In this document: positions 26,905-49,400 of the stretch, in pieces
Position numbering within the stretch: position 1 is the stretch's first letter
Layout of the letters: each line of letters begins with the position of its first letter
Source: a virus
Length of the DNA: 64,000 nt
Strand: one strand, 5' to 3'
IMG/VR virus record: IMGVR_UViG_3300036826_000588
Coordinates: 25,828 to 89,827 of that record
Made by a program: the position numbers and the translations under genes
Notes under the pieces: model-generated
What the model was told of the DNA's origin: nothing
Databases searched by the model: none
What the model saw: the letters and a program-made list of their open reading frames with translations, nothing else

Positions 26905-26915
26905 ACTCTCGACGT

Positions 26916-28388: not shown

Positions 28389-28464
28389 GCCCCCGTAGCT
28401 CAGAGGACAGAGCAGGGAGCTTCTACCTCCAAGGCCGGGCGTTCGAGTCGTCCCGGGGGCACCA
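28389..28464 (+). tRNA. tRNA-Arg(TCT)
   Basis: GGAG-CTTCTAC-CTCC; CCA. Confidence 0.88.
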
Positions 28465-28983: not shown

Positions 28984-29700
28984 ATGAGCAACGACCTCCC
29001 TCAACTGTCTCCTGATGGCAAGTGGCGCTGGGATGGCCAGCGGTGGGTTCCCAACGAGAGCGCTCCGCCAGGCGGGGCGACGAACAGCATGACGCCGCCC
29101 GTTGCGCCGGCCAGACGCAGTCGCCGCTGGCCCTGGTTCGTCGCCGTGGCTGCGGTGCTGTTCGTCGGAGTCTGCACCACCGCGGTCGCGAACTCGGGTG
29201 GCAGCGGACGCAAGGCTGCTGGCGTGTCGGCCACCCAGGCGCCGGCAGCGCCGACCCAGGCGCCCACGGCAAGGACTGCCCAGCCCGCTGCTCCGGCTCG
29301 CGACGGGTCCTGCTCGCCGCAGCCCTGCGCCAACGACAACTACGGCTGGATCGTCAACGTCAGCAGCTTCAAGTACGACGCGCCCAGCGGCAACGAGTTC
29401 GAGAAGCCCGAGGTCGGCAACGTGTACGTCACCCTCGCGGTGACCTTCACCAACAAGCTCGGCAGTGAGCAGCACGCGAACCCGCTCAACTTCGTCCTGC
29501 TGGACGGGGCCGGGGTCAAGCATACGGTCACGTTCACCGACGCCTGCCCCATCTGGGACGCCGTCAATCTCACGCCTGGCGCGTCGTTCGGACCGAAGTG
29601 CCTGGCGTTCGAGGCGACCGCGGGCAAGCCGGGCGGCCTGACGCTGGTCTGGACGCCGTCACTGCTCGGCGGCGGCGACTACGACATCAAGCTGAGCTAG
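28984..29700 (+). CDS. DUF4352-like membrane-anchored Ig-fold protein
   Basis: SPDGKWRWDGQRW N-terminal motif, TM segment, EKPEVGNVYVTLAVTFTN. Confidence 0.7.
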   Translation: MSNDLPQLSPDGKWRWDGQRWVPNESAPPGGATNSMTPPVAPARRSRRWPWFVAVAAVLFVGVCTTAVANSGGSGRKAAGVSATQAPAAPTQAPTARTAQPAAPARDGSCSPQPCANDNYGWIVNVSSFKYDAPSGNEFEKPEVGNVYVTLAVTFTNKLGSEQHANPLNFVLLDGAGVKHTVTFTDACPIWDAVNLTPGASFGPKCLAFEATAGKPGGLTLVWTPSLLGGGDYDIKLS

Positions 29701-29739
29701 CGCGCGACCCGAGGCGCGAGTACATCGATCCGTGAACGT

Positions 29740-29814
29740 GCGTCCGTAACTCAGCGGCAGAGTGGCGGCCTCTTAAGCCGAGCTGCGTGGGTTCGAGTCC
29801 CACCGGACGCACCA
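29740..29814 (+). tRNA. tRNA-Lys(CTT)
   Basis: CGGC-CTCTTAA-GCCG; CCA. Confidence 0.92.
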
Positions 29815-30113
29815 TCTTCAACTCGAATCCGACACCCCAGGCGGCGGCCCTGGTAGGCTCGCGGCGACGGGCGGTGGATGGCCTCCGATCTCCCTGGAGG
29901 TCTGCAAGATGCAGAACATCATCGTCGGTCGCTATGAACCCACCGAGGGCCTGCTGCGCCCTGACGGCACCGTCGAGCGCGTGTGGGACGGGTGGATCGA
30001 GCCGGCGGACCGATCATGGATCGCCTTCGTTCGGACGGCGGACCACCTGCCGGAGGTCTACCTGAACCGCGACCCGGAGACGGGAGCTGTCATCGAGTAG
30101 GTCCCCCGGGCGT

Positions 30114-30188
30114 GCCGGTGTGGCATAGGTGGCTGTGCAGTTGCCTTTTAAGCTCCAGACGCGGGTTCGACTCCTGCCGCCGGCACCA
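30114..30188 (+). tRNA. tRNA-Lys(TTT), weak anticodon stem
   Basis: GCCGGTG/CGCCGGC-A-CCA; loop CTTTTAA. Confidence 0.75.
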
Positions 30189-30421
30189 CCGCTTGCATCA
30201 CGCAGGCCATCTCCTCCATGGACATGGACGCCTGTTGGAGCGCTTTGAGGAACGGCCGCAAGTCCACCATCAGCCGGGCTGAATGGTCATGGCCGGCCAT
30301 TCGGAGCCAGGCCGCCCGATCGAGGCCGTGGAGCTCCGCAAGCCGTTGCTGTTCCTGCTGTTCGTGACGCGCGCGATCGGCGGCGGCGGCGGTGGCCATC
30401 TTGCTCTGGAACGTCACGTAC

Positions 30422-30499
30422 GCCTCCGTAGCTCAGCGGACAGAGCGCCGGCATCCGAAGCCGGGTCCGTCGCAGGTTCGATTCCTGCCGGAGGTACCA
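30422..30499 (+). tRNA. tRNA-Arg(CCG)
   Basis: CCGGC-ATCCGAA-GCCGG; CCA. Confidence 0.9.
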
Positions 30500-30935
30500 T
30501 CCCGCCCACCTACTGGCTGGGCGCGCTCTCCCGCTTCAGCTTCAGGTACGCCTCTCGCCACTGGTCGACGAGGCTGCCCGCCCTCGCCGCCTGGACGCGA
30601 GCGATCGCTGCGTTGTGCCAGGCGACGACGGTCCAGTGGACCACTGCCCACCCGATGATCGAGAGCGCGAACCAGAACATGGCCAAGCCGAAGACGAACC
30701 AGTCATGCTTGACGGCGGCCGCAACGGCACCACTGCCGTTGATGCTGGCAGCCAGGAAGAGGATCCAGCTCAAGATCGTCTGCGCCCGCCGGGCACGGGC
30801 CCACAGGTCAGCAAAGTCCGACTGCGAAGCTCGGACTTGGTCGGCATCGTCAGAGGAGAGGGGGAGGGAGTCAGCCATGGCTCCGCGGCACAATACAGGG
30901 TGGGGACCCGATCGCGCTACCTTTCAGATCATCGT

Positions 30936-31011
30936 GGCCCCGTAGCTCAGGGGATAGAGCGGCAGCGTCCTAAGCTGCGCGCCGGGGGTTCAAGTCCTCC
31001 CGGGGCCACCA
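30936..31011 (+). tRNA. tRNA-Arg(CCT)
   Basis: GCAGC-GTCCTAA-GCTGC; CCA. Confidence 0.92.
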
Positions 31012-31264
31012 TCTTCTCTTCGGTACTATCCCCGACATGACGGCCGAACTGGAAACCGAGCTGGAGCCGGACCTGGAGCCGGCGGTGTGCCTGACAGAAC
31101 ACATCGCCCACCTGATCCGGCGCACGGAGCGCAAGGCCGTGTGCGGGGCCTCGCCAGTCCTGCGTCTCTCCTCGATGGAGGATTGGCAGACCGCCTGGCG
31201 CGAACAGGCGAACACCTGGGACATCTGCCCTGGCTGCGCGGCCGGAGCAGTCGACGAGCTGAAC

Positions 31265-31340
31265 GCGGGCGTGGTGTAGACGGCAAGCACGGCGGTCTTC
31301 CAAATCGTCGGCACGGGTTCGAAGCCCGTCGCCCGCTCCA
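31265..31340 (+). tRNA. tRNA-Gly(TCC)
   Basis: GCGGT-CTTCCAA-ATCGT; U73-CCA. Confidence 0.88.
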
Positions 31341-31455
31341 ACCTCTTCGCCTATTCGGATCCGAGACGCCCGACAGGCGCGTGATACCCTTCGAGACCTC
31401 CTGGATGGAGGCGCCGGGGTGTCATGCAGCGCCCCGGCGCCGCGGTTTCCCCAGG

Positions 31456-31878
31456 TCAGGACGCCGCGGCGAGCACGTCCTCCTTGGAGTAGCCCATCAG
31501 CTCGGCGGCCGTGAGCAGGAGGTTCTTCCACTCCAGCTCCAGCTCCAGCTCCTGTTCGCCCCAGCCACCGGCTGCGCGCTTGAGGGTCTCGATCAGCACC
31601 TTCGCCACCGGCAGGAACATCGCCGGCTGGACGCCGTAGCGGCGGTGCCGTTCCCCGAGTGCGCAGAGGTGCGTCTTCAGGTACTCCGGGTCCTCCAGGT
31701 GGAGCATCAGCTCGGCCATCTTCTCGCCGAACATCCGGACCTGGCCGTCCATGTTCCGCGGGAAGATGCGGCGCAACTCCGGGCACTCCTGGAACAGCGA
31801 CTCGTAGAAGTGCTGGACCAGCCGGCCGTCGCGGTTGACCGCTTCCTCGAACGACGTCCGCAGCAGTTGTACGTTCAC
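31456..31878 (-). CDS. single-domain globin (flavohemoglobin-type globin fold)
   Basis: LLRTSF...HFYESLFQECPELRRIF...LGERHRRYGV (proximal His); GGAGGG RBS; frame stays open upstream to 32184. Confidence 0.85.
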   Translation of the reverse strand: MNVQLLRTSFEEAVNRDGRLVQHFYESLFQECPELRRIFPRNMDGQVRMFGEKMAELMLHLEDPEYLKTHLCALGERHRRYGVQPAMFLPVAKVLIETLKRAAGGWGEQELELELEWKNLLLTAAELMGYSKEDVLAAAS

Positions 31879-32261
31879 GTCCCCTCCCGGTGAGCGGGGG
31901 TACGCCGTCCAGGGCTGCGGGCCACGCTCCACGCGCGCGACGCCAAGGGCTTCCCGGAGCTGCCAGTGCGCACTCCCAGCGCTGGCAGCCTCACCGGCGA
32001 AGACGAACTCCGCGCCCTGGTCATGCAGCGCCTGCATGACCTCGACGGCCTCGGCGCGCCCGCCCTGGCAAACGGTGGCCCACCAGCGAGGACCGATCCT
32101 CATGCAGACGTACGTCAAGCGCTGCCAGGCGGGTAAGAGGTCAAGCTCCTGACGCCTTTCGCCCAGCCGTTGAAGCCAGCGCACGCCGACTACCCCCTCT
32201 CGCTCACGATCGGGGGATTGAAGCGCAGTCGAGACCGCTGTGTCAAGTTTCCGACACTGGC

Positions 32262-32290
32262 TTGACGAATGGGCAGAAGTGCGCTATGGT
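32262..32290 (+). promoter_or_regulatory. second tRNA-operon promoter
   Basis: TTGACG-N17-TATGGT, the same -10 as at 21324. Confidence 0.65.
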
Positions 32291-32380
32291 GACGATACCG
32301 TGTTCAGGTTGTATCTCTACTTGCTACTTAGTCGGTCATCCCTGTAGCCCGCAAGGGCCTCTCGGGGATGCCGCTGTAGT

Positions 32381-32469
32381 GGGTGGTGAACATCGGACCG
32401 GCTCGGTGCTCCGTCTCGAAAACGGATGAGGCTGCAAGGCCAGGGGTTCAACTCCTCCGCCACCCGCCA
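32381..32469 (+). tRNA. tRNA-Ser(CGA) with 8/4 fold and Sec-like 6-bp D-stem
   Basis: GGGTGGTG/CGCCACCC (8 bp), GGGG/CCTC (4-bp T-stem), CATCGG/TCGGTG D-stem, long V-arm, G73-CCA. Confidence 0.8.
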
Positions 32470-32510
32470 ACTGACTTCGCTTGCGTTCGTCGTGTTCATT
32501 CACAAGACGT

Positions 32511-32597
32511 CGGCGGGTGGCGGAATCTGGCAGACGCACCGGGTTCAGACCCCGGGCCGGAAGGCACCTGCGGGTTCGACTCCCGCCCCGCCGACCA
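32511..32597 (+). tRNA. tRNA-Leu(CAG)
   Basis: CCGGG-TTCAGAC-CCCGG; V-arm; A73-CCA. Confidence 0.88.
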
Positions 32598-32608
32598 ATA
32601 CCTCTCTC

Positions 32609-32694
32609 GTCGGAGTGGCGGAACGGTAGACGCGCCGGGTCGAGAGCCCGGTGGGCACCAGCCCGTGGAGGTTCAACTCCTCTCTCCGACACCA
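32609..32694 (+). tRNA. tRNA-Leu(GAG)
   Basis: CCGGG-TCGAGAG-CCCGG; V-arm; CCA. Confidence 0.9.
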
Positions 32695-32695
32695 T

Positions 32696-32780
32696 GCGTG
32701 GGCTCGACTATGTGGCGAAGACAACGGGCTGTAAACCCGCCGTGAAAGCTGTGGTGGTTCGACTCCGCCCCCACGCACCA
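32696..32780 (+). tRNA. tRNA-Tyr(GTA), irregular D-arm
   Basis: CGGG-CTGTAAA-CCCG; V-arm; A73-CCA. Confidence 0.8.
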
Positions 32781-32822
32781 ACACCCATCGCAACCGCGGC
32801 AATTTGCCGTAGAATCGGTGGC

Positions 32823-33074
32823 ATGACGAGAGCGATTCCCGAAGATGGCGAGGCCGAAGAGGCAGAGCAGGTGAAACACACGCTCCAGTTGCCGCTGAAG
32901 CTCTGGGAGGCATTCGGGCGGCGTGCGCGCCGGAGCGGCATTTCCAAAGCGGAAGCGCTGCGCAGAGCGGTATGGGTCTTCAACTTCCTGGCCGACAGAA
33001 TCGATGACGGCTCCGAGATCATCATTCGTGACAAGGATGGCAAGGAGCAGCGCCTGGTCATCTCGCCCTACTGA
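32823..33074 (+). CDS. ribbon-helix-helix (CopG-like) DNA-binding protein
   Basis: TLQLPLKLWEAF...GISKAEALRRAV; TAGAAT box just upstream of the ATG. Confidence 0.75.
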   Translation: MTRAIPEDGEAEEAEQVKHTLQLPLKLWEAFGRRARRSGISKAEALRRAVWVFNFLADRIDDGSEIIIRDKDGKEQRLVISPY

Positions 33075-33079
33075 TCGAC

Positions 33080-33157
33080 GCCGTCTTACCCCACGCTGGC
33101 AGAGGGCGCCGGCTCAAACCCGGTTCAGGGCGGGTTCGACTCCCGCAGACGGCACCA
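33080..33157 (+). tRNA. tRNA-Leu(CAA) with short variable loop
   Basis: GCCGG-CTCAAAC-CCGGT; 5-nt V-loop; A73-CCA. Confidence 0.8.
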
Positions 33158-33159
33158 AC

Positions 33160-33252
33160 GGAGCGGTGGCCGAGTGGCAAGGCAACGGTCTGCTACACCG
33201 TCGAGGGGGCCCGTAGAGGGTTCCTGCGCGAGTTCGATCCTCGCCCGCTCCG
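33160..33252 (+). tRNA. tRNA-Ser(GCT)
   Basis: ACGGT-CTGCTAC-ACCGT; long V-arm; G73. Confidence 0.9.
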
Positions 33253-33743
33253 CTCTCCCCCTGAGCGTCCGATGCCGGACAGTAGAACGCTCTGGAGAAG
33301 GGCACGCTGGCAGGACACCGCATGTGGACAGCCATCAGCACCGCACCCGATACGGTCTCAGGCGCTGCCGCCCTGCTCGGCGGAGTGCTCGGGATGGTTG
33401 CCTGGAGCCTGGAGCTCCCGTTGGAGCCGGTCGCAGCGGTCGCCGGCCTCGTGACGCATGTCGTGGCCTGCCGGCTGGGTCATGCTGGCCCGGCCGGCCA
33501 AGCTCTCCATGCCGCCTGTGAAGCATGGCATGCTGGATGGCACGCGGTGGCCAGGCTGGCCATCGCGTGACGGTCTCCCTCAAAAAGGTCGAGCCCAAGC
33601 GCGGACGCCAGGGCTCGAACCAGGGGGGGAGGGATGTCGGATAGAGGGGGGACGGCTGGTCGGCCACCGGCGCCGGGCATGGACCGGGCCCGCAACCAAC
33701 CTGCCGGCGTCAAGTGTAGTGCGTCGGGCTATCTTGACGCCAC

Positions 33744-34232
33744 ATGAGCAAGGCTGCGCTTCGGCGTCTGTACGACGAGCTTCCGACCATCGAGTGCCAG
33801 GGCCTGTGCCAGGACTCCTGCGGGCCGATCGGGATGTCTGATGAGGAGTACACGCTGATCTGCCGTCACCTCGGTCGGCCGATCCCCGACGCCGGGAAGG
33901 CTGACCAGGGCGTGCGTATCTGGCCGCCGCTGCCGGACCTGACGTGCCCGCTCCTGGGCGCGAACGGGCGGTGCACCGTCTATGCTCTGCGGCCGCTGAT
34001 CTGCCGCCTCTGGGGCGTCGTGGAGTCCATGCCGTGCCCGCACGGCTGCCAGCCCACGCCGCGGTACCTGACCAACCGGGAGGGGTTCGTGCTGCTCCAG
34101 CGCGCCGACGGGATGACCGCGGCGGAGGCCGAGGCGTTCATCGGCTACGGCGAGCACCGCGGGTTCCTGGGGGCTGTCGAGGAGCTCTATGGGCTGGCGC
34201 GGACGCCCATCATCCGGCCCCGCTCTGGATGA
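33744..34232 (+). CDS. YkgJ-family Cys-cluster (Fe-S/Zn) protein
   Basis: CQGLCQDSC...CPLL...CTVYALRPLICR. Confidence 0.85.
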   Translation: MSKAALRRLYDELPTIECQGLCQDSCGPIGMSDEEYTLICRHLGRPIPDAGKADQGVRIWPPLPDLTCPLLGANGRCTVYALRPLICRLWGVVESMPCPHGCQPTPRYLTNREGFVLLQRADGMTAAEAEAFIGYGEHRGFLGAVEELYGLARTPIIRPRSG

Positions 34233-34574
34233 GCTGCATCTGCCCCTTCAGTTCGCGCAGGCGGGCCCGGCGGCCGGCCGCCGTCAGGCGGTGGCGGATC
34301 CCCGAGCGCTCCAGGTAGCGGGCTTCGAGGTTGGGGCGGTACTCGGCGACCGCCTCCACCCAACCGGGCAGGGGATCGCCCCTACCCTCCTTGGCGCAGG
34401 CGAAGCACCAGGCCAGCGGCGGCTGCCCCTGAACACGGCGCTTCGCATTCAGGCTTCGGAGCAGGACTTCCCCGCCCATCGCGCCCGGCTCGGGCGCGAC
34501 CGTCATGTGCTCGAACGTGGAGAAGGGATTGACCCGGGTGTCGTGGACCGGACAGGTGTACTGGGCGACGTGGC

Positions 34575-35576
34575 TCATACCGTGCGGCGGGGGCGGTACT
34601 CGGGGGACCGGCTGATGGTCTGGGCGGCCCGCGGCCGCTTCGGCTGCTCGAAGCGCGGCAGGACGTCGGCCGGCGGCAGGCCGGTGCAGTAGTCCTCGCG
34701 CAACAGCGCGGCGACCTTGCCCCACGCGGCGCGCGCGGTGTAGGTGTTGACGCTGACGACGCCGGCCATGGCAGCCGTCACCAGCTCGTCCGGGTCCTGC
34801 TCGTGGAGGAAGGCGGCCAGGTCTTCTCGGTCGAACCCGTGCTCGCGGTAGACGTGGACGAAGGCGCCGATGCCCAGCAGGACGTTGACCTTGTGGGCGG
34901 CAGTGCGCCGCTCGCGCGCCTCCAACTGCGCGTCCGTGTACGTGGCCTTCCCGGTCGGCGCCGGCCACGCCCGGTTGATGAGCCAGAGTGTCTCGTCGAG
35001 GACGTCCTCGCCCCACGCGAGCAGGTGTTCGAGCACCTGGACGCACGAGATCACCTCCGCCGAGGAGTGGGTGGCTACCTTCAGGTGGTGCCGGCTCAGG
35101 ATGTTGCGGATGGCGAGCGCCGCCGGGTCGCGCGAGATCAGCGACGCCTGGTAGCGATGGACGACGTGGACGGCGAGCCGACCACGGCCGTTGAGCTCCT
35201 TGAAGAGGTACGCCTCCTCGGCGACGCTGAGACCCTGGTGACCGAAGACCCAGATGCCGGGCACGACGCTGCCCTCCAGCTCGCCCGTCTCCACCAGCTC
35301 GTTGTGCAGCAGGGCAGCGGCCTGCCGCGTCGCGCCGTCGAACAGCCAGTACTTGCCGTCGCGGCGGAGGCTGCCGAACAACCCCTGACCGAGGATCTGG
35401 TTCCAGTTCCGCGCCATCGGCTCGATCCGACTCCGGCGTTGCCGGTCCTCCGGCTGGTAGGCACGGTCGACCTGGAACTCCTTGGGATGCACCCACTCCG
35501 GTTTCCCGGACTGCATAAGCATCGCCTGGAGATCGTTTGGACTCTCGGTGGTGATGGGGGCGGCCGCTAAAGCCAT
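34575..35576 (-). CDS. ParB/Srx-like (DUF6551-type) protein
   Basis: VDRAYQ...YWLFDGATRQAA...EEAYLFKELN. Confidence 0.75.
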   Translation of the reverse strand: MALAAAPITTESPNDLQAMLMQSGKPEWVHPKEFQVDRAYQPEDRQRRSRIEPMARNWNQILGQGLFGSLRRDGKYWLFDGATRQAAALLHNELVETGELEGSVVPGIWVFGHQGLSVAEEAYLFKELNGRGRLAVHVVHRYQASLISRDPAALAIRNILSRHHLKVATHSSAEVISCVQVLEHLLAWGEDVLDETLWLINRAWPAPTGKATYTDAQLEARERRTAAHKVNVLLGIGAFVHVYREHGFDREDLAAFLHEQDPDELVTAAMAGVVSVNTYTARAAWGKVAALLREDYCTGLPPADVLPRFEQPKRPRAAQTISRSPEYRPRRTV

Positions 35577-35708
35577 GCGAGGTCCCTCCTCGGACGTGGA
35601 TGTGGTGGCTGACGCACGGCCGGGCACGGGCCGGGCCGGACGGTTTTCGGCGCGTATGCTAACTCGGCGCTCGCGTTTTGGTGCCCTGGTGTCGTAATAT
35701 TCCCGCCC

Positions 35709-35847
35709 GGACGGGCCGAACGGGGGGCCGTTAACGCTGATTGGTACAGCACCTCCCTCACAAGGAGTTCCACTCGGTTCGAATCCGGGGAACAGCCCGG
35801 CGCAAGCCGGGAAAACCGGTCGCCCAAAACCGTATGTCCGTCCGCCA
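35709..35847 (+). ncRNA. Y RNA candidate (Ro60-associated, with tRNA-like domain)
   Basis: Terminal stem GGACGGGC/GTCCGTCC, GCCGAACG motif, internal D-, anticodon- and T-like arms, 3' GCCA; 65 nt upstream of Ro60. Confidence 0.8.
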
Positions 35848-35912: not shown

Positions 35913-37697
35913 ATGCAGCGGTACACCGGCATGTTGTCGCGCACCCCTCAGCAGGCCCCGATTCCGGGCGTGCCTGGAATGGTGCCGAACCGTGCCGGTG
36001 GCTGGGGCTTCGAGGTCAGCGACCGCGTCCTGGCCGAGCGTTTCATCCTCCTCGGGACGGTCCACGGCTCGTACTACGCAGAGCCCGAGCAGCTCACAGG
36101 CCGGGCAATCGACGCGATCGACCGGCTGCTGGAGAGCGGCGACGGCGAGTGGCTGGTGCAGAAGATCGTCGAGATCAGCACCCTTGGCCGCGCGCCCAAG
36201 CAGGACCCTGGCATCCTCGCCCTCGCCCTGGCGCTGAAGACCGCCCCTGACCGGCGTACGCGCCGCCTGGCGGCCGACGCGGCTCCGCGCGTGTGTCGGA
36301 CCGTCTCCACCGCTTCGGACCTGGCTGACGCTCTCAAGGGCCTCGGGCCGGCGCCGGCGGCCGAAGGCCACAATCGCGAGAAGCCGGCCATCCGGTCGCG
36401 TGCCCAGCGACGCGCCATCGCAGGCTGCTTCGAGGCGTGGGCCCGCGATCCAGCACGGCTGGCCTACCAGCTCATCAAGTACGGGCGGGCCGCCGACAAC
36501 CGGCGCCGGGGGCCGGACGGTTCCCAGGGAGCCATCTGGCGCGCTGTCGACCTGGCGCGGCTGTCGCACTTCCGTGCCTCCAATCCAGAGGTCGACGCGC
36601 TGATGTCGTGGCTGCACGGCCGGAAGGTGGCCAACCTGCCCGCGCAAGTGCGGGCCTACGAAGAGGTGCAGCGCGTGGCGGCCGTGCCGGGGCAGCTCAG
36701 CGAGCACTTTGCTGGCGAGAAGTTCGCCACGGAAGCGCGCGCCAAGGCTACAGAGCGCATCGCCGAGCTCGTGCGCGAGCACCGGCTGCCCTGGGAGTGC
36801 GTCCCAAGCGAGTTCGTGAACCTGCCGAGCGTCCAGCGGGCCCTCTTCGAGGACATGCCCCTGCACACGATGATCCGTCAGCTCGGCCGGCTGACGGCGG
36901 GCGGTCTCTTCGACGCGCCTTCGAGCGTCCAGATGGCCGTCGACCGGCTCCGCGACGTCGAGCGGATCCGGAAGGCGCGCGTGCACCCGATGGCCGCCTA
37001 CCTGGCCGCCATGATCTACGGCAGCGGCCACGGACTGAAGGGCAAGGGCTCATGGCGGCCGGTCCCGGAGATCAAGGACGCCCTCATGGCGGCCTTCCTG
37101 GGTTCCTTCCGCAGTCTGAATGCCAGCGGCAGGCAGATCGTCGTCGGCGTCGACTGCTCCGGCTCGATGGTGCAGCACGACGTGCTCGGCATCCCGGGCT
37201 TCTCGGCACAGGAGGCCGCCTTCATCATGGCGTGGGCCACGGCACGCGTCGAACCGCGGGCCCGCGTGGTGGCCTTCGGCGAGCAGGCCGAGGAGATCGA
37301 GCTGCGCGACGTGCAAACGCTGGACGAGCTGCGGCGCCGGGCGCGCATGGTACGGATACGCCACAACAGGGGTACTGACTGCTCGCTGCCGATCCTCTAC
37401 GCCCTGGAGCGCCCAAACTGGGGCGAAGTGGATGCGTTCGTGATCTACACGGACGAGGAGACCTGGTACAGCCCGACGATCCACCCGATCGAGGCGTTGT
37501 GGCAGTACCGGGCCCGCTGGGAGCGGCGGACGCGGCTCGTCTCCGCCGCGCTCGTGGCCAACCACTACAGCCTCGTGAACACGGCGCCGGACCGCGGCGA
37601 GTCCGTTCAGGACGATGCCGGCGTGCTCGCGGTGACGGGCTTCGACTCGGCCGCGCCAGCGATCATCGCCGACTTCGTGCGCTCAGGGGACGGATAG
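35913..37697 (+). CDS. rsr: Ro60/TROVE domain RNA-binding protein with vWA domain
   Basis: NRAGGWGF...ERFILLGT..GSYYA, LIKY, RQLGRLT, VGVDCSGSM (MIDAS), GTDCSLP, YTDEETW, GFDSAAP. Confidence 0.93.
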   Translation: MQRYTGMLSRTPQQAPIPGVPGMVPNRAGGWGFEVSDRVLAERFILLGTVHGSYYAEPEQLTGRAIDAIDRLLESGDGEWLVQKIVEISTLGRAPKQDPGILALALALKTAPDRRTRRLAADAAPRVCRTVSTASDLADALKGLGPAPAAEGHNREKPAIRSRAQRRAIAGCFEAWARDPARLAYQLIKYGRAADNRRRGPDGSQGAIWRAVDLARLSHFRASNPEVDALMSWLHGRKVANLPAQVRAYEEVQRVAAVPGQLSEHFAGEKFATEARAKATERIAELVREHRLPWECVPSEFVNLPSVQRALFEDMPLHTMIRQLGRLTAGGLFDAPSSVQMAVDRLRDVERIRKARVHPMAAYLAAMIYGSGHGLKGKGSWRPVPEIKDALMAAFLGSFRSLNASGRQIVVGVDCSGSMVQHDVLGIPGFSAQEAAFIMAWATARVEPRARVVAFGEQAEEIELRDVQTLDELRRRARMVRIRHNRGTDCSLPILYALERPNWGEVDAFVIYTDEETWYSPTIHPIEALWQYRARWERRTRLVSAALVANHYSLVNTAPDRGESVQDDAGVLAVTGFDSAAPAIIADFVRSGDG

Positions 37698-42690: not shown

Positions 42691-43269
42691 TCAGAGCAGC
42701 GTTGGCTGAGACGTTGCGAGGTCGTTTGCAGGAACGGCGGGCGCCGGCATGGTCAGGGCCTGTACGAGGAAGTTCGCGACGACGGGTGCGATGCCTGCGT
42801 GAGCGTTGCCGGCGACGTTGAGGGTCTTGATGCGGTTGCGGTGCAGCCACACGGGGAACTCGATCAGCTCCACTCCGTGGGCCCACACCTCGAACGTCTC
42901 CCCGTCCCACTCGTTGCGCATGGGGTCGTACCCGGGACGGGTCAGAACGATGTCGTAGTGGGGCTTCCCGAGCTGGCGGCAGCAGCGGAGGGTGAGGCGT
43001 TCGCCCGCGCTGTCGAAGTCATACGCGAACCGCACGGTGCCGTCCGAGTGCTCGACGTTGAGCCTGGTGCGGTACTGGTATCCCCACTCAGGGGTCTCCG
43101 TGAGGCCATACAGCGCGACGAGATCCGGACGTTGGCCGTTCGCGGTACGGCCGCCGCGGGGGATGTAGCCGCCTGTCTCCAGGCCGAGCTGACGGAAGGC
43201 GCGAAGCCCACCCTCGTCAGCGCCGATCTGGCACCCCGAGATCCCCTTGCGGACGAGCAGCTCAGTCAC
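42691..43269 (-). CDS. SLOG-superfamily putative molybdenum-carrier-like protein
   Basis: ISGCQIGADEGGL, GGYIPRG, YRTRLNVEHSDGT, LNVAGN. Confidence 0.85.
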   Translation of the reverse strand: MTELLVRKGISGCQIGADEGGLRAFRQLGLETGGYIPRGGRTANGQRPDLVALYGLTETPEWGYQYRTRLNVEHSDGTVRFAYDFDSAGERLTLRCCRQLGKPHYDIVLTRPGYDPMRNEWDGETFEVWAHGVELIEFPVWLHRNRIKTLNVAGNAHAGIAPVVANFLVQALTMPAPAVPANDLATSQPTLL

Positions 43270-43555
43270 GAGGGGAGTCTTCCCAGCCCATCGGCTCCTC
43301 GGCAATGGCCGCCTCGTGCGCGGCGATTTCCCGGCCGGCGAATTCGTCGTACAGCTCCTCCATGTCCATGCCGGTCATGGCGCAGATGGCGCGCATGATG
43401 CCCTGCCGGTACTCCGTCGCGAGATCCCTCTTCACTCGGTCCTCGGCGTTTCGGACCCGTATGCGGCGGGCGCGCGCGAAGGCGTCATCCAGCAGTTCGA
43501 TCGCAGCAGGGGTGAGGGGGGCCGGCTTTGGCTTCTCGGTGGCGGCATCGTTCAT
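43262..43555 (-). CDS. hypothetical protein (leaderless)
   Basis: TACAAT-N7-ATG. Confidence 0.6.
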   Translation of the reverse strand: MNDAATEKPKPAPLTPAAIELLDDAFARARRIRVRNAEDRVKRDLATEYRQGIMRAICAMTGMDMEELYDEFAGREIAAHEAAIAEEPMGWEDSPRD

Positions 43556-43686
43556 GCCAGCTATTGTAACACTACCGCCGTTGCTGTGCAGGGGTGCGCG
43601 CGGCTCGATGCGTTTCCCCCGCTTGGCTGAGATTCACCAGCCGCGAGCCGCACGCCAGGCTATTATACCGAACAACAGTTCGGGGG

Positions 43687-43714
43687 TTGCGTTCCGCGGC
43701 GGTATCGTTATAAT
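43687..43714 (+). promoter_or_regulatory. sigma70 promoter driving the ncRNA array
   Basis: TTGCGT-N16-TATAAT in an otherwise GC-rich region. Confidence 0.75.
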
Positions 43715-44423
43715 TGGAGGCGTCGGGCGGGGCGCGGCTCCGATCGAAGGAACCTCCGCCCCGACAAGAACCTTCCAAAGTGAAGACCGACTCCCCCGGG
43801 AAGGGGAGGTGCACCGCATGGCCCTGGCGCCAACGGCAGGGTGTGAGGTAGCTGAACTGGCTATCCTTGCACCTGACAGGGGGCGGCCGTGGATAGTCGG
43901 CAAGGGACAAGCACCCCACCCCTTCCCGGGGGACCAACTTTGACTTCACCCCCGCAGCCATGCTCGGTGGAGGCGCGAGGAGGGCTTGCCCTCCTCGCCC
44001 GCCCCGAGCGGCGCGGGTGTTATATGAGGGACTGGGAGCGCCCGCAAGCCCCGTTGCGGGAGTAGAGCTGAAAGGGCAGGCCCGCTCGCGGCGCCGGTCG
44101 GTTCTCCCAGGTACAGCCTGGGCGCCTCCCGGCACTCCCTCATCGACCTCCCAGGGGAGGGGAGCCACTCGACGTGACCGACGGAAATGCGAGCGCTGCC
44201 GCAGTGCTGTGCGGCCAACAGCGAAGTGCACGCGCCGAGGTCATAGGACTGGAACGGGGGATGCACGTACTCCCTGAAGGCCAGTTCAGATCGCGGGGTG
44301 GAAGGGTCATGGGTTACGGCCGACCCTCCGCCCCCGGTCACGTCGGGGATGGCCTCCCGAGGAACCGGGGATTGGCCGCGTGGAACCCGTCCGCCACAGG
44401 GATCGGGGTAACGCGGTAGCGGT

Positions 44424-44503
44424 GGATGCAGGTGGTCGCAAGGGGAGCACGCCCCTCGCAAGGGGGAAGTGACCCGTTCGAATCGGGTCTCTGTATCCGT
44501 CCA
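44424..44503 (+). ncRNA. tRNA-like element (9-bp acceptor-like stem, 6-bp T-stem)
   Basis: GGATGCAGG/TCTGTATCC; GACCCG-TTCGAAT-CGGGTC; CTCGCAA loop; ends GTCCA. Confidence 0.6.
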
Positions 44504-44509
44504 ACCGCT

Positions 44510-44589
44510 GGGGCACAGAAGGGTTCGACGGGGCTGAACGCCGAAGTGCACGGCTCCGGAGGTCGGTTCGACACCGACGTGCTCCACCA
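44510..44589 (+). ncRNA. mini-tmRNA (tRNA-like domain only)
   Basis: GGGGCAC/GTGCTCC-A-CCA with G3-U70; stemless D-loop ending GGTTCGAC; helix 2a GGGGCTG/CGGCTCC; GGAG linker; T-arm. Confidence 0.8.
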
Positions 44590-44954
44590 ACGTGATCTCG
44601 GATCAGAGGCCGGGAAGCTGCGAAAGCCCGTGGGCGTGCTGGGCACTGGCCTGGTGAGCGGCGCCGGCCTCCGATCCGGGGGCACCCGGAACGAGAGGCG
44701 CTGGTTCCCGTAACGGCAAGAGGGCAGAGCCCGGTCAGACGTCACCGGTGACGCGCCCCACCAGCTTCGACGGCAGTCGGGAAAGAGCGTGGAGCGGCTC
44801 GGCCGGCGCCTCTCACTCAACCTTCGTACGCAAAGGGCGGGACAGCCCAAAGCGGATGGGGCCCCGGGGCCGGCAAAGTCCGGCCCCGCCTCCCGCTGGG
44901 AGCTGGTGAGTTCTGTGGCGGGCCTCGCCGGTTCCCAACGGGTGGAGAGAAAGG

Positions 44955-45000
44955 GCAGAGCCCGGGTGCACATCGGATGCGCCCGGGCTCTCTGCGTTTC
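44955..45000. terminator. strong hairpin where plus- and minus-strand transcription converge
   Basis: GAGCCCGGGTGCA-N7-TGCGCCCGGGCTC. Confidence 0.6.
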
Positions 45001-45489
45001 AAGCGCGCGCGCGGATGCTGTCCACGTACCGCGTCAGCCCAACCCACGCCACTCCGGCGTGCCGGTTCGCGTACTCGACGCCGCGGCGGGCGTCAGCGTG
45101 CTCGCGCATGCGGACCGTGGCGCCGGCCGCCCACTCCTGGTCCAGGCCACCATCAGGCCCGAGCAGCAGCTCGATGTCCTCCAGGTCCATCAGGGGCAGA
45201 CCCTGCGGGCACGCCACGGGGATCGAGCGCTTCGCATCCCAGCCGGCTTCGTAGACCGCGTGCAGCGCCGCTCGTGCGCCCGTGCAGGCAACGCAGCCGG
45301 CGGCGTGTCGCAGCCAATCCAAAGGGCCGGGCCCCGAGGATCCGAGAACGCGGAGACGTGGCCGCTCCTCCTGGTCCCCCAGAAGGGGGAGCTGACTGAA
45401 TGTCGCTGCTGCAACTGCCATCTCTGCCGCCTTGTCGTATTGGCTGTTGAGCCATACAGTACAACAAGACGGCGCATGCGGCTACTGCT

Positions 45490-46452
45490 TCAGATCGAAA
45501 CCTTGCTCGCGGCGTTGTTGTCGAACAGCCCACGGCGGATGTAGCCGCCCGCGACACGGGAGGACTTCCAGCGTCCCTGGGCCATGATCGCCGCCAGGCT
45601 GGCACCTCCAGCGTCTGCGCTGGTCGCCATGCCGGCCCGCAGGCTGTGGCCGGCGTAGTCGGCCGGATCCAGGCCGATGCGCCGGCAGCCACGCTTCACG
45701 ATGAGCGCAACCGCTTCTGGGGTCATTCGGTCTTCGCCGACGTGGTCCCACCTGCTGACCGGGTGCCAGATGGCACCTGAGTTGATGCCGGCGCCGTCGA
45801 GCCAGGCGCGCAGGGCTCGCACCGGGCACGTGGCCGCGTCCGAGCGCCGTGGTACCGCCACACGCTGGCCCAGGGCCTCCTGGTCGGTCTTGCTCCGCCC
45901 CAGGAGGATCACCAGGCCGTCCTCCAGCCACTCAACGTCCTCGACGTCCTGGCCGGCCAGCTCCGAGCGCCGGAAGCCGCCGAGCAGGCCGACGAGCAGC
46001 AGCGCTCGATCGCGGCGGCCGGCGTGCGTGTCGGTGGGGACCTCTTCCAGCAGCAGGCGGAGCTGCTTGCCGGTCAACGCCTTCTTCGGCTTGGGCGCGC
46101 CGCCCTTCTGGCGCCGGATGCCGGCCATCACCTCCTGGACCCGCCGGTCACGGGTGGGGGAGTTGTGGCCGGCCGTCTCGTGCGCCTTCGCCAGCGCCGC
46201 GAGCCGGCGGCTGATGGTCGCCGTGCTTCGTCCGAGCTGGGCCAGGTGGGTGATGTAGCCCGCCACCGTCGCCGGGGCGGCCGGAAGTGGATTGCGGCGC
46301 CGCTCGGCGCACCAGGCGATGAAGCTCTCCCAGTCGCTGGTGTATGCGCGCCGGGTGTTCCCGGCCACAGCGGCGGCCGCGTACTCGGCCATCTGGTGCG
46401 CGAGCGCGGCCGACATGGGGTGCTCGGCGCGTTGCGCCAGCTCCTCGGTCAT
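45490..46452 (-). CDS. Cre-like tyrosine recombinase
   Basis: SAM-like N-terminus; RDRALLL..FRRSEL, SKTDQ, GHSLRAG, GRW, YIR (R-K-H-R-W-Y intact). Confidence 0.9.
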   Translation of the reverse strand: MTEELAQRAEHPMSAALAHQMAEYAAAAVAGNTRRAYTSDWESFIAWCAERRRNPLPAAPATVAGYITHLAQLGRSTATISRRLAALAKAHETAGHNSPTRDRRVQEVMAGIRRQKGGAPKPKKALTGKQLRLLLEEVPTDTHAGRRDRALLLVGLLGGFRRSELAGQDVEDVEWLEDGLVILLGRSKTDQEALGQRVAVPRRSDAATCPVRALRAWLDGAGINSGAIWHPVSRWDHVGEDRMTPEAVALIVKRGCRRIGLDPADYAGHSLRAGMATSADAGGASLAAIMAQGRWKSSRVAGGYIRRGLFDNNAASKVSI

Positions 46453-49400
46453 CGCCAGTCGACCTCCACCTCGTTGCCCCCGAGACGCTCGTAGATGTCC
46501 CGAGCCCAGCCGCGGCGGTCGGAGCTGACGGCCTCGACCCACGCGATGCGGAGTTCGTCCTCGCTGAACGCTCCCCTCTCCTCCTCGCAGGCGACCATGA
46601 AGCGCGCCAGCGTCGGGATCGGGGACGGCCCGGAGCGTCCCGGTCGGCTGGACTTGGTGGCATCGCCCATGCCGCTATTGTAGCGGTATCGCTGACGCCG
46701 GGCGTCCGAAGTGGGGGGCTGGCGGGGGATAGGCGCGCCCGAAGGCACCACAGTCAGGGCAGTTGAAGCGGAAGCCCTCGACGGCGGCCGCTTTCACCTG
46801 GACGCCTGCCACCGGCGCAAGCCCGGTCACCACCAAGCCTGCGGTCACGGTGCAGTTGCGTTCGCCGCAGTTCGGGCACGGCGGAAGCGTAGCGTCGTTG
46901 TCAGCCATCAGACCCTCCCGTCGCGAACTGGTGGTGCGGGCACTTCCCGGGCCACCCGCACGTGCAGCCGCGGTAGTGGCCGTGCACGTCGGCGCTGCGC
47001 AGCTCGCCGCATTCGGCGCACGCCGTCTCGGGCAGGAACCGCAGGCTGTCATCGGCGACCTGGAGGCGGATCTCTGGCGGCGCTCCGAAGAGTTGAGCGT
47101 TCTTGGTCGTAAGCGCCCGGACCGTGACCGTGCCCGGCATCTGGAAGGCGGCGTGGGGGTCGAACATCACGCGGGCGCCGGCCGGCAGGACGCCCAGGTC
47201 ACCGCTGGTCAGGAAGATCGCAAACACTGGCGTCGCGACCGTACGCCAGTCGTCGCCTGCGGTGTCTGGCGTCATCGCGCCGCCGCCCTGGCCGCCGCGG
47301 CCGCCCGGATCAACGTTGCGTGGCGGGCCACCTCGCCGGTGGGCAGGATCATCCAGGCCGCGTAGTTGCCGAACCTGGCGGCCGATGTGGTCCACACGTG
47401 CCGGAACGCCTCGAACTGGTCCGGGCTGATCCAGCCCAGGCGATGCCACTCCTCCACCTGGGCCAGCGTAGCGTTGGCCAGGTAGTGCGCATCGCACTCC
47501 TCGCACCGGCCGAGGAAGTGGTTGGTGTCGGCGCCGGGCAGGTAGTGGGTGCTCAAGCGGTGGCTCCGGTCACGAGCAGGTCGAACGGCACCCGCGGCAG
47601 CCGGCGCAGCATCTGGCCCAGTCCGTCCACGCTGGAGGCGTTGTACCAGAAGACGCGCCGGGCCCAGCCGTTGTCGGACGAGTGGTCGAACCAGACCAGC
47701 CGGGAGCCGTCGCGGCTCTGGACCCGCATGATGCACACGCCCAGCGGCGTCTTGGCGACCACTGTGCCGCCGTCGACAGCCACGTGGGTCGCATGGTAGG
47801 CGTCTGCGCAGAGATCCTCGCGCATCAACTCGTGTTCGGGCGACTCGCCGAGCGTGATGGCAGGAACGGTCCAGCGGGCCGGCAGGGCGCTCACTGCCTC
47901 GCCTCGTACTCATCGGCCACCTGGGCGGCCAACTCGAAGAACTCCCCGGGCACCTCGTATTCCTCGGGCGGGCCGAAGGCGTTGAAGTGCTGACAAGCAT
48001 CCTCGGCCAGGTGCGTCGCATCGACCGTATGGATAATCACGTGGTCAGCGGCCACGGAGCGCATGTAGCGGAGAACGGCGTCCGGGTCGAGTGGGTTGGC
48101 AGTGGCAGCGTTCATGCTCTAATTGTAGCCGCGTGCCCCGTTCAAGGCAACAGCTCTTGGAAGCCCTTGGGTCCCAGGTGCCTCCACCGCGGCCGGCCGC
48201 CCTCGACCCACACGAGATCGAAGGTCTCGTCGTGGAGGGGCTGCCGGTAGCTCCCGCTGTCGTAGTGCTCGACCATCGCGAACTGCGTGGTGTCGAGCCG
48301 GCGCGCCACCGCGGCCCAGACGTGCTCGGCGGCGTTCGTGATGCTCATGCCCGAGTTGCTGGCCAGCTCGGTCACCAGGGCGACCTGGGCGCCGTCGCGG
48401 CCGCGGTACACGCGCAGCCGGCAGTGCGTTGGCGCCTGGCTCGGGAAGGCGTACGGCGACCGGACGTAGAGGTCGGCGTCCAGCTCCGGAGCGTCGAGAG
48501 CTGCAATCGTGCTCATGGGCAAGGTGGACTCCTTCTTCAGAGGGTGGCCGTTCATGCCCCAATTATAACTCGTGATAACGGTCATTATCACGAGTTAGTA
48601 ACGGGCCGGGGGAGGAGCCTCGGAGCAGGCCGCTGTGGCCATCTAGCCGTTACGCCCATCGGCCTATCGCGGCAGCTTGCCGTTGAGCAGCATCGATCTT
48701 TTGCTCAAACTCCCGCTGCTGGATATGCCAATGCAGGCATCGGCGCTCCGGGATAATCGCCAATTGGCACAATTCGCATTGCTGTTGATGCGCCCAATCG
48801 GCCCATTGGCGACCCCACCGCCAGAGCACGACGATCAGCCGGGCCAGCGGCGGCGCCATGAGCCGGTACGCGAGCCTTCCGACGCCCGTCATGGGAGCTG
48901 GATCTCGGAATCGATTCGGGTGTCGCGCGTGAGCAAGCTTCGGCCGAGCGGCGTGATGGTCGCTCGGTTCAGCCACAGGCGTTTGTCGAGCTCCACCAGG
49001 CCGAAGGCGAACAGCCGCGCCAGGTAGACGCGTGGTCGCAGGGGCGCCGTGCTCGCCGGCCGGATGCCGGCGACGATGTAGAGCACCTCGAAGTGCTCCA
49101 GCTCCAGGTTGGCCTCGCGCCATTCGAGCTGGCCAGGACTCTGGCCGCCGCGGCCGGGTGGCCGGCTCGTCAGGTGCCACCAGCCGCAGGCCGAGCACGG
49201 GTAGATCCCACGGACCGGTGCTCCGGAGCGCCACTTCGACATCAAGGACTGAACCGCGTAGTCCAGCGACCGCTTCACCTTCCCGGAAGCCGGGCAGACA
49301 TCGCGCGTGGCGGGATCAGCGACTGGAACCCTTGGAACCCTGCCGGAGCCGCGGCTTCCTCGCCGCCGGGCACGAGTTCGCGCGGTGACCTTGGGAGCTA

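What the first reader, a model, noticed from the sequence alone, without database searches (positions are those of the whole stretch)
44510..44589. 80-nt mini-tmRNA: intact tRNA-like domain with the whole mRNA-like domain deleted
Seen: GGGGCAC-AGAAGGGTTCGAC-GGGGCTG-AACGCCGAAGTGCA-CGGCTCC-GGAG-GTCGG-TTCGACA-CCGAC-GTGCTCC-A-CCA. Established: this is the tmRNA tRNA-like-domain layout, with the G3-U70/A73 alanine identity, a stemless D-loop ending UUCGAC (SmpB contact region), helix 2a and a T-arm. Here helix 2a is capped by only 14 nt, so the pseudoknots and tag ORF are absent. I know such MLD-less tmRNAs only from protist mitochondria and laboratory constructs. Inference: a phage-encoded SmpB sponge or dominant-negative tmRNA that blocks trans-translation tagging of phage proteins, or one that rescues ribosomes without a degradation tag.
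Basis: partly seen in the sequence, partly recalled or inferred. Interest (0 to 1): 0.9.

Follow-up and report, generated by a model that had tools for sequence, protein, structure and literature searches.

The report
Phage tag-less mini-tmRNA gene
This soil phage carries a real 80-base gene for only the alanine-accepting, tRNA-like end of the bacterial ribosome-rescue RNA (tmRNA); one such RNA was already described in mycobacteriophage DS6A, so this is a divergent new member of a large, mostly unannotated phage family that probably interferes with the host's rescue-and-tagging system.

Summary
Window 44510-44589 (+) is an 80-nt RNA gene with a 7-bp acceptor stem (G3:U70, A73, encoded CCA), a stemless D-loop ending GGUUCGAC, a 7-bp helix 2a capped by 14 nt, a GGAG linker and a T-arm. 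There is no tag frame and no pseudoknot.

It is not a one-off. On 99 sequences, 97.0% of pair cells are paired against 68.4% in shuffles. A covariance model built without the window scores the element 72 bits, the published 'TLD only' tmRNA of phage DS6A 60.1 bits, and the best window tRNA 35.9 bits.

Those papers already propose tmRNA inhibition, perhaps by SmpB titration. G3:U70 and A73 are kept in 66 and 67 of 68 members found without selecting for the acceptor, so charging probably matters.

ARAGORN and Rfam miss the element. A tyrosine integrase lies 900 nt downstream, but no attB was found. No RNA contig covers the element.

This scan has found the same family before on other DNA. Verdict: new member of a known kind.

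The parts
44510..44589 (+). whole TLD-only (tag-less) mini-tmRNA gene, 80 nt, CCA encoded
   Evidence: Sequence. Fold. R1 77 bits. R2, built without the window, 72 bits. Single copy in the 89.8-kb record.
44510..44516 (+). acceptor stem 5' strand GGGGCAC (G3 of the G3:U70 pair)
   Evidence: Pairs 7 of 7 with 44579-44585. Family acceptor positions 5 and 6 covary with 4-5 pair types.
44517..44529 (+). stemless D-loop analogue AGAAGGGUUCGAC
   Evidence: Sequence. D-loop length is 11-17 nt in 98 unique family members, 13 nt in 40 of them.
44530..44536 (+). helix 2a 5' strand GGGGCUG
   Evidence: Pairs with 44551-44557. The family helix is 92.3% paired, and 6 of its 7 pairs show changes on both sides.
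44537..44550 (+). 14-nt cap AACGCCGAAGUGCA in place of pseudoknots and tag frame; the fold gives a 3-bp stem with a CGAA loop
   Evidence: The cap plus helix 2a spans 16-39 nt across the family.
44551..44557 (+). helix 2a 3' strand CGGCUCC
44558..44561 (+). linker GGAG (family consensus GGAC)
   Evidence: GGAC in 81 of 98 and GGAG in 2 of 98 unique members.
44562..44578 (+). T-arm: GUCGG / UUCGACA / CCGAC
   Evidence: The family T-stem is 100% paired in A3, and 4 of its 5 pairs show changes on both sides.
44579..44585 (+). acceptor stem 3' strand GUGCUCC (U70)
44586..44589 (+). discriminator A73 and encoded CCA
   Evidence: A73 is present in 97 of 98 members found with a pattern that does not fix the acceptor.

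Best explanation
The element is a gene for a tag-less mini-tmRNA: the tRNA-like domain (TLD) of tmRNA alone. It belongs to the same family as the published 'TLD only' tmRNA of mycobacteriophage DS6A.

Shown here:
- the tmRNA-TLD layout
- family membership
- conserved alanine identity (G3:U70, A73)

Inferred mechanism, in steps:
1. The RNA is made during infection and processed like a tRNA.
2. Host AlaRS charges it with alanine.
3. It binds host SmpB, and EF-Tu when charged.
4. It competes with host tmRNA for SmpB and for stalled ribosomes.
5. It has no resume codon and no tag frame, so the ssrA degradation tag cannot be added.

The net effect would be to blunt host trans-translation. Phage proteins made from truncated or cut messages would then escape tag-directed proteolysis.
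For: Anatomy: acceptor stem with G3:U70, A73 and CCA; stemless D-loop with GGUUCGAC; helix 2a; T-arm.

All 120 of 120 hits of scan 1, the window's own copy included, have a 7-bp acceptor, although only 4 of the 7 pairs were fixed by the pattern.

Covariation on 99 sequences: 97.0% of pair cells paired against 68.4% shuffled (0 of 500 shuffles reach it); covariation score 0.730 against 0.156; slid controls at most 55.5% paired and 0.108.

Model scores with R2, built without the window: window 72 bits, DS6A 60.1, two actinobacterial genome copies 68.5 and 51.7, best window tRNA 35.9.

Alanine identity under selection: among 68 unique members new to scan 2, whose pattern does not fix the acceptor, 66 have G3:U70 and 67 have A73.

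tRNA-like gene context: 39 of 119 other loci have a tRNA within 3 kb, 26 of 119 within 150 nt, and all 152 nearby tRNAs lie on the element's strand.

Literature: PMC4131195 (passages) says a molecule similar to the DS6A TLD strongly inhibits tmRNA, perhaps by titrating SmpB. PMC11915505 (passage) says the DS6A form was shown to inhibit endogenous tmRNA in E. coli.

The phage record holds no SmpB and no full-length tmRNA.
Against: There is no direct evidence of expression, charging or SmpB binding for this element.

The primary paper behind the inhibition claim (Mao et al. 2009) is not held. I know it only through two citing papers. As cited, inhibition did not need chargeability, so a pure sponge model does not explain the conserved G3:U70.

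Rfam tmRNA models do not hit the element.

The host is unknown, so mimicry of the host's own TLD could not be checked.

The family was gathered with patterns derived from this element, and alignment A3 is fitted to the model. The counts therefore lean toward the structure.

In this window the gene lies 8.7 kb from the tRNA array and next to an integrase, which is unlike the other loci examined.
Confidence: 0.62

Rival explanations
1. Productive tag-less rescue. Ala-TLD with SmpB and EF-Tu enters stalled ribosomes and accepts the nascent chain. The peptidyl-RNA is then released or hydrolysed. Ribosomes are recycled for the phage without tagging the product, so the RNA helps rather than inhibits.
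For: G3:U70 is kept in 66 of 68 and A73 in 67 of 68 members not selected for the acceptor, which points to a need for charging. CDS-less tmRNAs persist in organelles, which the 2025 database paper reads as still useful to the cell; for the mitochondrial form it notes a co-occurring, mitochondrion-targeted SmpB (PMC11915505, passage). The phage invests heavily in translation, with 34 tRNA genes.
Against: There is no stop codon and no known release route for a peptidyl-TLD. As cited in PMC4131195 and PMC11915505, the only experiments show inhibition of tmRNA, not rescue. Nothing here separates this reading from the inhibitor reading.
Confidence: 0.2
2. The gene's 3' end serves, also or instead, as the phage attachment site (attP) for the neighbouring tyrosine integrase, as tRNA and tmRNA 3' ends do for many temperate phages.
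For: A tyrosine integrase lies at 45490-46542 (-), 900 nt downstream, with its 3' end facing the element (PF00589 6e-10, phrog_1 2.6e-20). The acceptor stem GGGGCAC/GUGCUCC equals that of the two actinobacterial tRNA-Ala(CGC) genes I cut out and read, so about 9-10 nt could be shared. PMC10865867 (passages) reports actinophage integrases that use cores as short as 8 bp, and tmRNA-overlapping attB sites.
Against: An exact 22-nt search with the 3' half over genomes of 185,579 species gave 4 hits, none in a tRNA or tmRNA. No second copy of the 3' end exists in the 89.8-kb record. Integrase adjacency is not a family trait: 0 integrase-like ORFs in 119 other loci by phmmer and HMM with this integrase. 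No integrase family appears among the 25 families shown, of 44, for 128 neighbour ORFs. An attP needs only the 3' part, yet the whole folded TLD is conserved.
Confidence: 0.1
3. A decayed, functionless remnant of a full-length phage tmRNA gene.
For: Full-length tmRNAs occur in other actinophages such as Bxz1 (PMC4131195). No expression evidence was obtained for this element.
Against: All four structural modules are intact, and the element scores 72 bits with a family model built without it. The family is diverse, with 78 clusters at 85% identity among 99 sequences, yet keeps its pairing through compensatory changes.
Confidence: 0.04
4. A D-arm-less alanine tRNA that decodes codons.
For: It has alanine identity elements and a T-arm. 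ARAGORN at 90% threshold forces a 'tRNA-Val(cac)' reading on 44518-44589.
Against: There is no 5-bp stem with a 7-nt anticodon loop. The middle arm is 7 bp plus a 14-nt cap. In the family this cap varies in length and sequence, with no conserved NGC triplet. The D-loop GGUUCGAC and the GGAC-type linker are tmRNA features (recalled). Rfam tRNA does not hit the element.
Confidence: 0.02

Closest known systems
'TLD only' (CDS-less) tmRNA of Mycobacterium phage DS6A (NC_023744 28478-28560; Hudson, Lau & Williams 2014, PMC4131195; PMC11915505)
   Same: Both are phage-borne (DS6A infects an actinobacterium, and this phage's relatives suggest one too) and about 80 nt. Both have a 7-bp acceptor with G3:U70 and A73, a stemless D-loop, a short helix 2a with a small cap, a T-arm, and no tag frame. 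The same model, built from neither, scores them 60.1 bits (DS6A) and 72 bits (window).
   Different: DS6A has GGUCGAC rather than GGUUCGAC in the D-loop, linker GCAC rather than GGAG, and no encoded CCA (it ends ACUA). It lies between gp33 and gp34 (DNA pol III beta), not beside an integrase. The window element is at most 68% identical to any family member collected.
Canonical one-piece bacterial tmRNA (Rfam RF00023)
   Same: The 5' and 3' ends share the TLD layout and alanine identity. The cap keeps a tmRNA-like AAnCC..AAGUGCA motif (the comparison with E. coli tmRNA is recalled, not computed).
   Different: The element has no resume codon, tag frame or pseudoknots, and is 80 nt against about 350-400 nt. 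RF00023 does not hit it.
CDS-less organellar tmRNAs (mitochondrial forms; about 65-bp plastid forms of Mallomonadaceae, PMC11915505)
   Same: TLD-only architecture.
   Different: Those are organellar, and the mitochondrial form is reported to co-occur with a nucleus-encoded, mitochondrion-targeted SmpB. This one is viral, and the record holds no SmpB. No sequence comparison was made here.
tRNA-Ala (the phage's own at 24654-24729; actinobacterial tRNA-Ala(CGC))
   Same: G3:U70, A73, T-arm and CCA. The acceptor stem GGGGCAC/GUGCUCC is identical to that of tRNA-Ala(CGC) in the two actinobacterial genomes I read.
   Different: The element has no D stem and no anticodon arm. tRNA-Ala scores 35.9 bits with R2 against 72 for the element.

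Membership tests
TLD-only (tag-less) tmRNA, DS6A type | 7-bp acceptor stem with G3:U70 and discriminator A73 | tested here: met
   GGGGCAC/GUGCUCC, A73, CCA. Conserved in 66 and 67 of 68 members not selected for these features.
TLD-only (tag-less) tmRNA, DS6A type | Stemless D-loop analogue with the GG(U)UUCGAC motif | tested here: met
   AGAAGGGUUCGAC at 44517-44529. Calling this motif a tmRNA/SmpB-contact feature is recalled knowledge.
TLD-only (tag-less) tmRNA, DS6A type | Helix 2a closed by a short cap, with no pseudoknots and no tag reading frame | tested here: met
   A 7-bp helix plus a 14-nt cap. The helix covaries in the family.
TLD-only (tag-less) tmRNA, DS6A type | T-arm of 5 bp with a 7-nt UUCRAnn loop, joined directly to the acceptor 3' strand | tested here: met
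   GUCGG/UUCGACA/CCGAC. 97 of 98 unique members have 5 of 5 pairs.
TLD-only (tag-less) tmRNA, DS6A type | Sequence-and-structure similarity to the published member | tested here: met
   R2, built without the window or DS6A: window 72 bits, DS6A 60.1 bits, tRNAs at most 35.9 bits.
TLD-only (tag-less) tmRNA, DS6A type | Alanylation by AlaRS, SmpB binding, inhibition of trans-translation | not testable with these tools
   Known only through citations of Mao et al. 2009 in PMC4131195 and PMC11915505. The paper itself is not held.
TLD-only (tag-less) tmRNA, DS6A type | Expressed as a discrete small RNA | tested here: inconclusive
   Contigs of two soil RNA libraries cover only the flanks, 44000-44182 and 44686-44860. 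Contigs cannot show a small RNA.
Canonical tmRNA (RF00023) | mRNA-like domain with resume codon, tag frame and pseudoknots; Rfam gathering score | tested here: not met
   Only 14 nt lie between the helix 2a strands. No RF00023 hit on the element.
tRNA-Ala without D-arm | Anticodon arm of 5 bp with a 7-nt loop carrying an NGC anticodon | tested here: not met
   Middle arm of 7 bp plus a 14-nt cap. The cap is variable in the family. No call by ARAGORN at default or by Rfam tRNA.
attP core overlapping a tRNA/tmRNA 3' end | Block of identity with the 3' end of a host tRNA or tmRNA gene (attB) | tested here: inconclusive
   22-nt exact scan of genomes of 185,579 species: 4 hits, none in a tRNA or tmRNA. 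Only the 7-nt acceptor strand plus AC is shared with actinobacterial tRNA-Ala(CGC). The host may not be represented.

The most novel reading that the evidence does not exclude
The mini-tmRNA is not a passive SmpB sponge. It is a charged decoy that enters the ribosome: Ala-TLD with SmpB and EF-Tu goes into stalled ribosomes and takes the nascent chain, ending trans-translation without a tag.

In this phage it would form part of an RNA-damage counter-defence set, alongside 34 tRNA genes, a Ro60 orthologue with a tRNA-like RNA, and a LigT-like protein. That set would keep phage proteins from being tagged when host nucleases cut phage messages.

Its gene, whose acceptor stem copies actinobacterial tRNA-Ala(CGC), may also serve as the attP of the adjacent integrase.
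Probability: 0.2. Interest if true: 0.75.

Novelty: new member of a known kind. Interest (0 to 1): 0.45.

Why it matters
Trans-translation is the main bacterial quality control for broken messages. It tags the products for destruction. A phage RNA that disables or redirects it would be a compact way to take over host translation.

The kind has been in print since DS6A. What this window adds is threefold:
- a divergent, CCA-encoding member from an uncultivated soil phage
- evidence that the family is large and keeps its alanine identity
- the fact that standard tools (ARAGORN, Rfam) do not annotate it

My five full-text searches found no paper that describes the family's breadth. This scan has met the family on many other genomes.

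Tried and rejected
Rfam and ARAGORN. No tmRNA-family call on the element at gathering score or at E<=10. RF00023 on the whole record hit only tRNAs, at 35 and 20.6 bits, below the 47-bit cut-off. ARAGORN at default gave no call. At 90% threshold it forces 'tRNA-Val(cac)' on 44518-44589, which I reject because there is no anticodon arm.

Phage collection by blastn. The 1.2-kb region gave no match. The 80-nt element gave only E 0.7 fragments.

Expression. Two soil metatranscriptome runs hold 9% of the sampled words. When laid, their contigs cover 44000-44182 and 44686-44860, not the element. Contigs cannot show a small RNA, so this says nothing either way.

attP. The exact 22-mer in genome contigs gave 4 chance hits in coding-looking DNA. 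No relatives of the integrase were found in viral contigs. No second copy of the 3' end exists in the window or record; only 11-12-mers recur, and the 12-mer at record position 1832 lies in coding-like DNA. A looser pattern over 401 Actinomycetes genomes was too unspecific: 121 genomes matched, and the backwards control also matched often. Its only use was to show tRNA-Ala(CGC) genes with the same acceptor strand.

A hidden full-length or split tmRNA upstream. The 16-nt repeat 44217-44232 / 44537-44552 is at chance level by my own rough estimate, which rests on no call. No tag-like frame appears in 44100-44510, and no ARAGORN tmRNA call down to 80% threshold; the 70% calls carry implausible tags. 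R1 with filters off finds nothing else in 43300-45600 above 10.5 bits.

Conserved protein partner. Pfam on 128 neighbour ORFs from 76 representative loci (chosen out of 119) found mixed phage genes: GP88 in 6, DUF7227 in 4, DnaB_C in 2, Clp protease in 2. Only 25 of 44 families were shown.

Neighbouring window ORFs. 43305-43943, 44789-45544 and four others further downstream gave no Pfam hit; the first two also gave no PHROG hit.

Supplements of papers are closed. Table S1 of PMC9004378 and the supplementary tables of PMC11915505 may list further phage TLD-only forms that I could not see.

Full report
THE OBSERVATION

The parts are:
- acceptor 5' strand GGGGCAC
- a 13-nt stemless D-loop analogue ending GGUUCGAC
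- a 7-bp helix, GGGGCUG with CGGCUCC, closed by 14 nt
- linker GGAG
- T-arm GUCGG/UUCGACA/CCGAC
- acceptor 3' strand GUGCUCC, which gives G3:U70
- A73 and an encoded CCA

The minimum-free-energy fold gives this layout at -37.2 kcal/mol. The z-score is -2.55 and 1 of 200 shuffles folds as well. Fourteen nucleotides cannot hold a tag frame or pseudoknots.

ARAGORN finds 34 tRNA genes at 21606-35798, all on the + strand, but no tmRNA and no call on the element. Rfam finds no tmRNA-family hit on the element at gathering score or at E<=10. RF00023 run on the whole record hits only two tRNAs, below its cut-off.

THE GENOME

The window is bases 25828-89827 of an 89.8-kb IMG/VR virus record that CheckV rates 87% complete. 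GC content is 68%.

It encodes:
- a Mu-type portal
- a terminase-like protein
- a sigma factor
- a LigT/2'-5' RNA-ligase-like protein
- a Ro60 (TROVE plus vWA) orthologue

The Ro60 protein matches 354 cultured-phage records by tblastn. Of these, 350 carry actinobacterial genus names, at roughly 31-33% identity in the rows listed. The portal is about 30% identical to Corynebacterium phage portals. Two soil metagenome runs hold a large share of the stretch, 0.97 and 0.43 of the sampled words. A soil actinophage is therefore likely, but the host is not known.

The record holds no SmpB, no full-length tmRNA, and only one copy of the element.

IT IS A FAMILY, NOT A ONE-OFF

All 120 sequences, the window's own included, have a full 7-bp acceptor stem, although the pattern fixes only four of the pairs. 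They reduce to 98 unique sequences of 68-90 nt. In these, the D-loop is 11-17 nt, the linker is GGAC in 81 of 98, and the T-stem is fully paired in 97 of 98.

I aligned 99 sequences to model R1: these 98 plus DS6A. The result:
- 97.0% of pair cells form standard pairs, against 68.4% in shuffles (0 of 500 shuffles reach it)
- the covariation score is 0.730 against 0.156
- with partners slid by 1-3 columns, at most 55.5% pair and the score is at most 0.108
- 13 of 19 pairs show changes on both sides

Caveats: the alignment is fitted to the model, and the pattern fixed GGGG/CUCC and the TTC motifs.

The set is diverse, with 78 clusters at 85% identity. The window element is at most 68% identical to any other member.

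Model R2, built from 24 sequences without the window, gave these scores:
- window element: 72 bits
- DS6A element: 60.1 bits
- two copies found in 2 of 151 sampled Actinomycetes genomes: 68.5 and 51.7 bits
- best window tRNA: 35.9 bits

ALANINE IDENTITY IS UNDER SELECTION

A second pattern fixes only the D-loop motif, the GGAC linker and the start of the T-arm.

Of its 99 unique hits, 96 have a 7-bp acceptor stem and 98 have at least 6 bp. Among those 98, 96 have G3:U70 and 97 have A73. Among the 68 that are new to this scan, 66 have G3:U70, 67 have A73, and none encodes CCA.

The window element therefore belongs to the CCA-encoding subset. That fits the phage's own tRNAs, at least two of which end in an encoded CCA (alignments).

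CONTEXT

In the other 119 loci of scan 1:
- 39 have an ARAGORN tRNA within 3 kb
- 26 have one within 150 nt
- all 152 nearby tRNAs lie on the element's strand

This fits transcription and processing together with tRNA genes. ARAGORN leaves 114 of 120 elements uncalled. It overlays the other 6 with tmRNA calls that carry odd tags.

No protein partner is conserved. Pfam on 128 neighbour ORFs from 76 representative loci gives mixed phage functions.

In this window the setting is different. The element lies 8.7 kb beyond the last tRNA-like gene. Upstream is a cpYpsA SLOG gene at 42691-43305 (-). Downstream is a tyrosine integrase at 45490-46542 (-), whose 3' end faces the element 900 nt away.

THE attP RIVAL

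Temperate phages often carry the 3' end of a tRNA or tmRNA gene as attP, and actinophages use tmRNA-overlapping attB sites (PMC10865867, passages). I tested this in four ways.
- An exact 22-nt search with the element's T-loop-to-acceptor stretch, over one genome for each of 185,579 species, gave 4 hits. All are in coding-looking DNA with no tRNA or tmRNA.
- No second copy of the 3' end exists in the record.
- A search with this integrase, by phmmer and then an HMM, found no integrase-like ORF in the 119 other loci.
- No relative of the integrase turned up in viral contigs.

What remains is a 9-10-nt identity. The acceptor stem GGGGCAC/GUGCUCC equals that of the tRNA-Ala(CGC) genes in the two sampled Actinomycetes genomes I cut out and read. 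Six other listed hits in that sample share one of these two 3' ends.

A short-core attP cannot be excluded, but nothing supports it.

WHAT IS KNOWN

Hudson, Lau and Williams 2014 (PMC4131195; passages and reference list read) list 'Mycobacterium phage DS6A (TLD only)'. They write that a similar molecule, chargeable or not, strongly inhibits tmRNA, perhaps by titrating SmpB, citing Mao et al. 2009.

The 2025 tmRNA database paper (PMC11915505; passages read) says the DS6A form was shown to inhibit endogenous tmRNA in E. coli. It also reports CDS-less plastid forms.

Mao et al. 2009 is not held.

I fetched the DS6A element, NC_023744 28478-28560, which lies between gp33 and gp34. It has the same layout, but with GGUCGAC in the D-loop, linker GCAC, and no encoded CCA.

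Five full-text searches found no paper on a wide phage distribution of such RNAs. Supplements were closed.

Earlier notes of this scan describe the same family on many other genomes. I treat them as leads, not as support.

MECHANISM

Shown here:
- the tmRNA-TLD anatomy
- family membership
- covariation
- conserved alanine identity
- tRNA-like gene context

Inferred: the RNA is processed like a tRNA and charged by AlaRS. It binds SmpB, and EF-Tu when charged. It competes with host tmRNA and, lacking a message, prevents tagging.

The published inhibition is said not to need charging. A pure sponge therefore does not explain why G3:U70 is kept. Entry into the ribosome, whether as a dead-end decoy or as tag-less rescue, is the open and interesting question.

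Contigs of RNA libraries cover only the flanks, so they say nothing about expression.

VERDICT

This is a new, divergent member of a known kind. Its function is inferred from the literature and from conservation, and was not tested here.

Noticed in passing
window 35727-35797 and 35913-37697: A Ro60 orthologue (vWA_Ro60 1e-34, TROVE 2e-14) lies 115 nt downstream of a weak tRNA-like gene. That gene scores 32.7 bits with Rfam tRNA, with non-standard pairs in the acceptor stem; ARAGORN calls it 'tRNA-Val(cac)'. It could be the tRNA-like module of a bacterial-type Y RNA (the YrlA kind; PMC4201824 seen only in the search listing).
   Followed up: partly
window 44422-44503: A degenerate tRNA-like fold ends 6 nt before the mini-tmRNA. 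It has an 8-bp outer stem and a 6-bp T-arm with loop UUCGAAU, and no encoded CCA. MFE is -37.1 kcal/mol with z = -2.55. ARAGORN calls it 'tRNA-Ala(cgc)', at 44427-44498, only at 90% threshold. Rfam tRNA does not hit it. R1 sees only its T-arm, at 7.4 bits.
   Followed up: partly
window 21606-35798: An array of 34 ARAGORN tRNA genes, all on the + strand, covering most amino acids. At least two of them (tRNA-Ala 24654-24729, tRNA-Gly 31265-31340) end in an encoded CCA.
   Followed up: no
window 14067-16052; 42691-43305 (-); 18540-19838: Three further genes: a LigT/2'-5' RNA-ligase-like domain in a 661-aa protein, a cpYpsA SLOG protein (2e-24), and a sigma-70-type factor. Together with Ro60 and the tRNA array, this gives the phage a strong RNA-metabolism flavour.
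   Followed up: no
window 44000-44182 and 44686-44860: Contigs from two soil metatranscriptome libraries cover these stretches on either side of the element, at word depths 16.4 and 4.9. I could not assign either stretch to a gene with confidence. DNA carry-over in the libraries is not excluded.
   Followed up: partly
L240 (G007) and L241 (G108): Actinobacterial tRNA-Ala(CGC) genes share the element's acceptor stem GGGGCAC/GUGCUCC. In L241 the last 15 nt of the tRNA region (TGTGCTCCACTCGTC) occur twice in tandem, which looks like an integration scar.
   Followed up: partly
loci L126-L223 (scan 2): Many family members do not encode CCA: none of the 68 new unique hits does. After A73 most still have a C, followed by variable bases. 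Position 4 of the acceptor varies in the 98 hits with a good acceptor stem (GGGG 68, GGGC 16, GGGT 7, GGGA 5), with its partner following.
   Followed up: partly
L005, L023, L039, L110, L113, L118: ARAGORN overlays these six family members with 'tmRNA' calls that carry improbable tag peptides. Some database 'phage tmRNA' annotations may therefore be mis-read mini-tmRNAs.
   Followed up: no
L228 (G058) and L229 (G038): Two of 151 sampled Actinomycetes genomes carry a family member, at 68 and 51.7 bits. Both have G3:U70 and a GUCGAC/GUCGAU D-loop like DS6A. They are presumably prophage-borne, but the three L228 ORFs I scanned gave no Pfam hit.
   Followed up: partly
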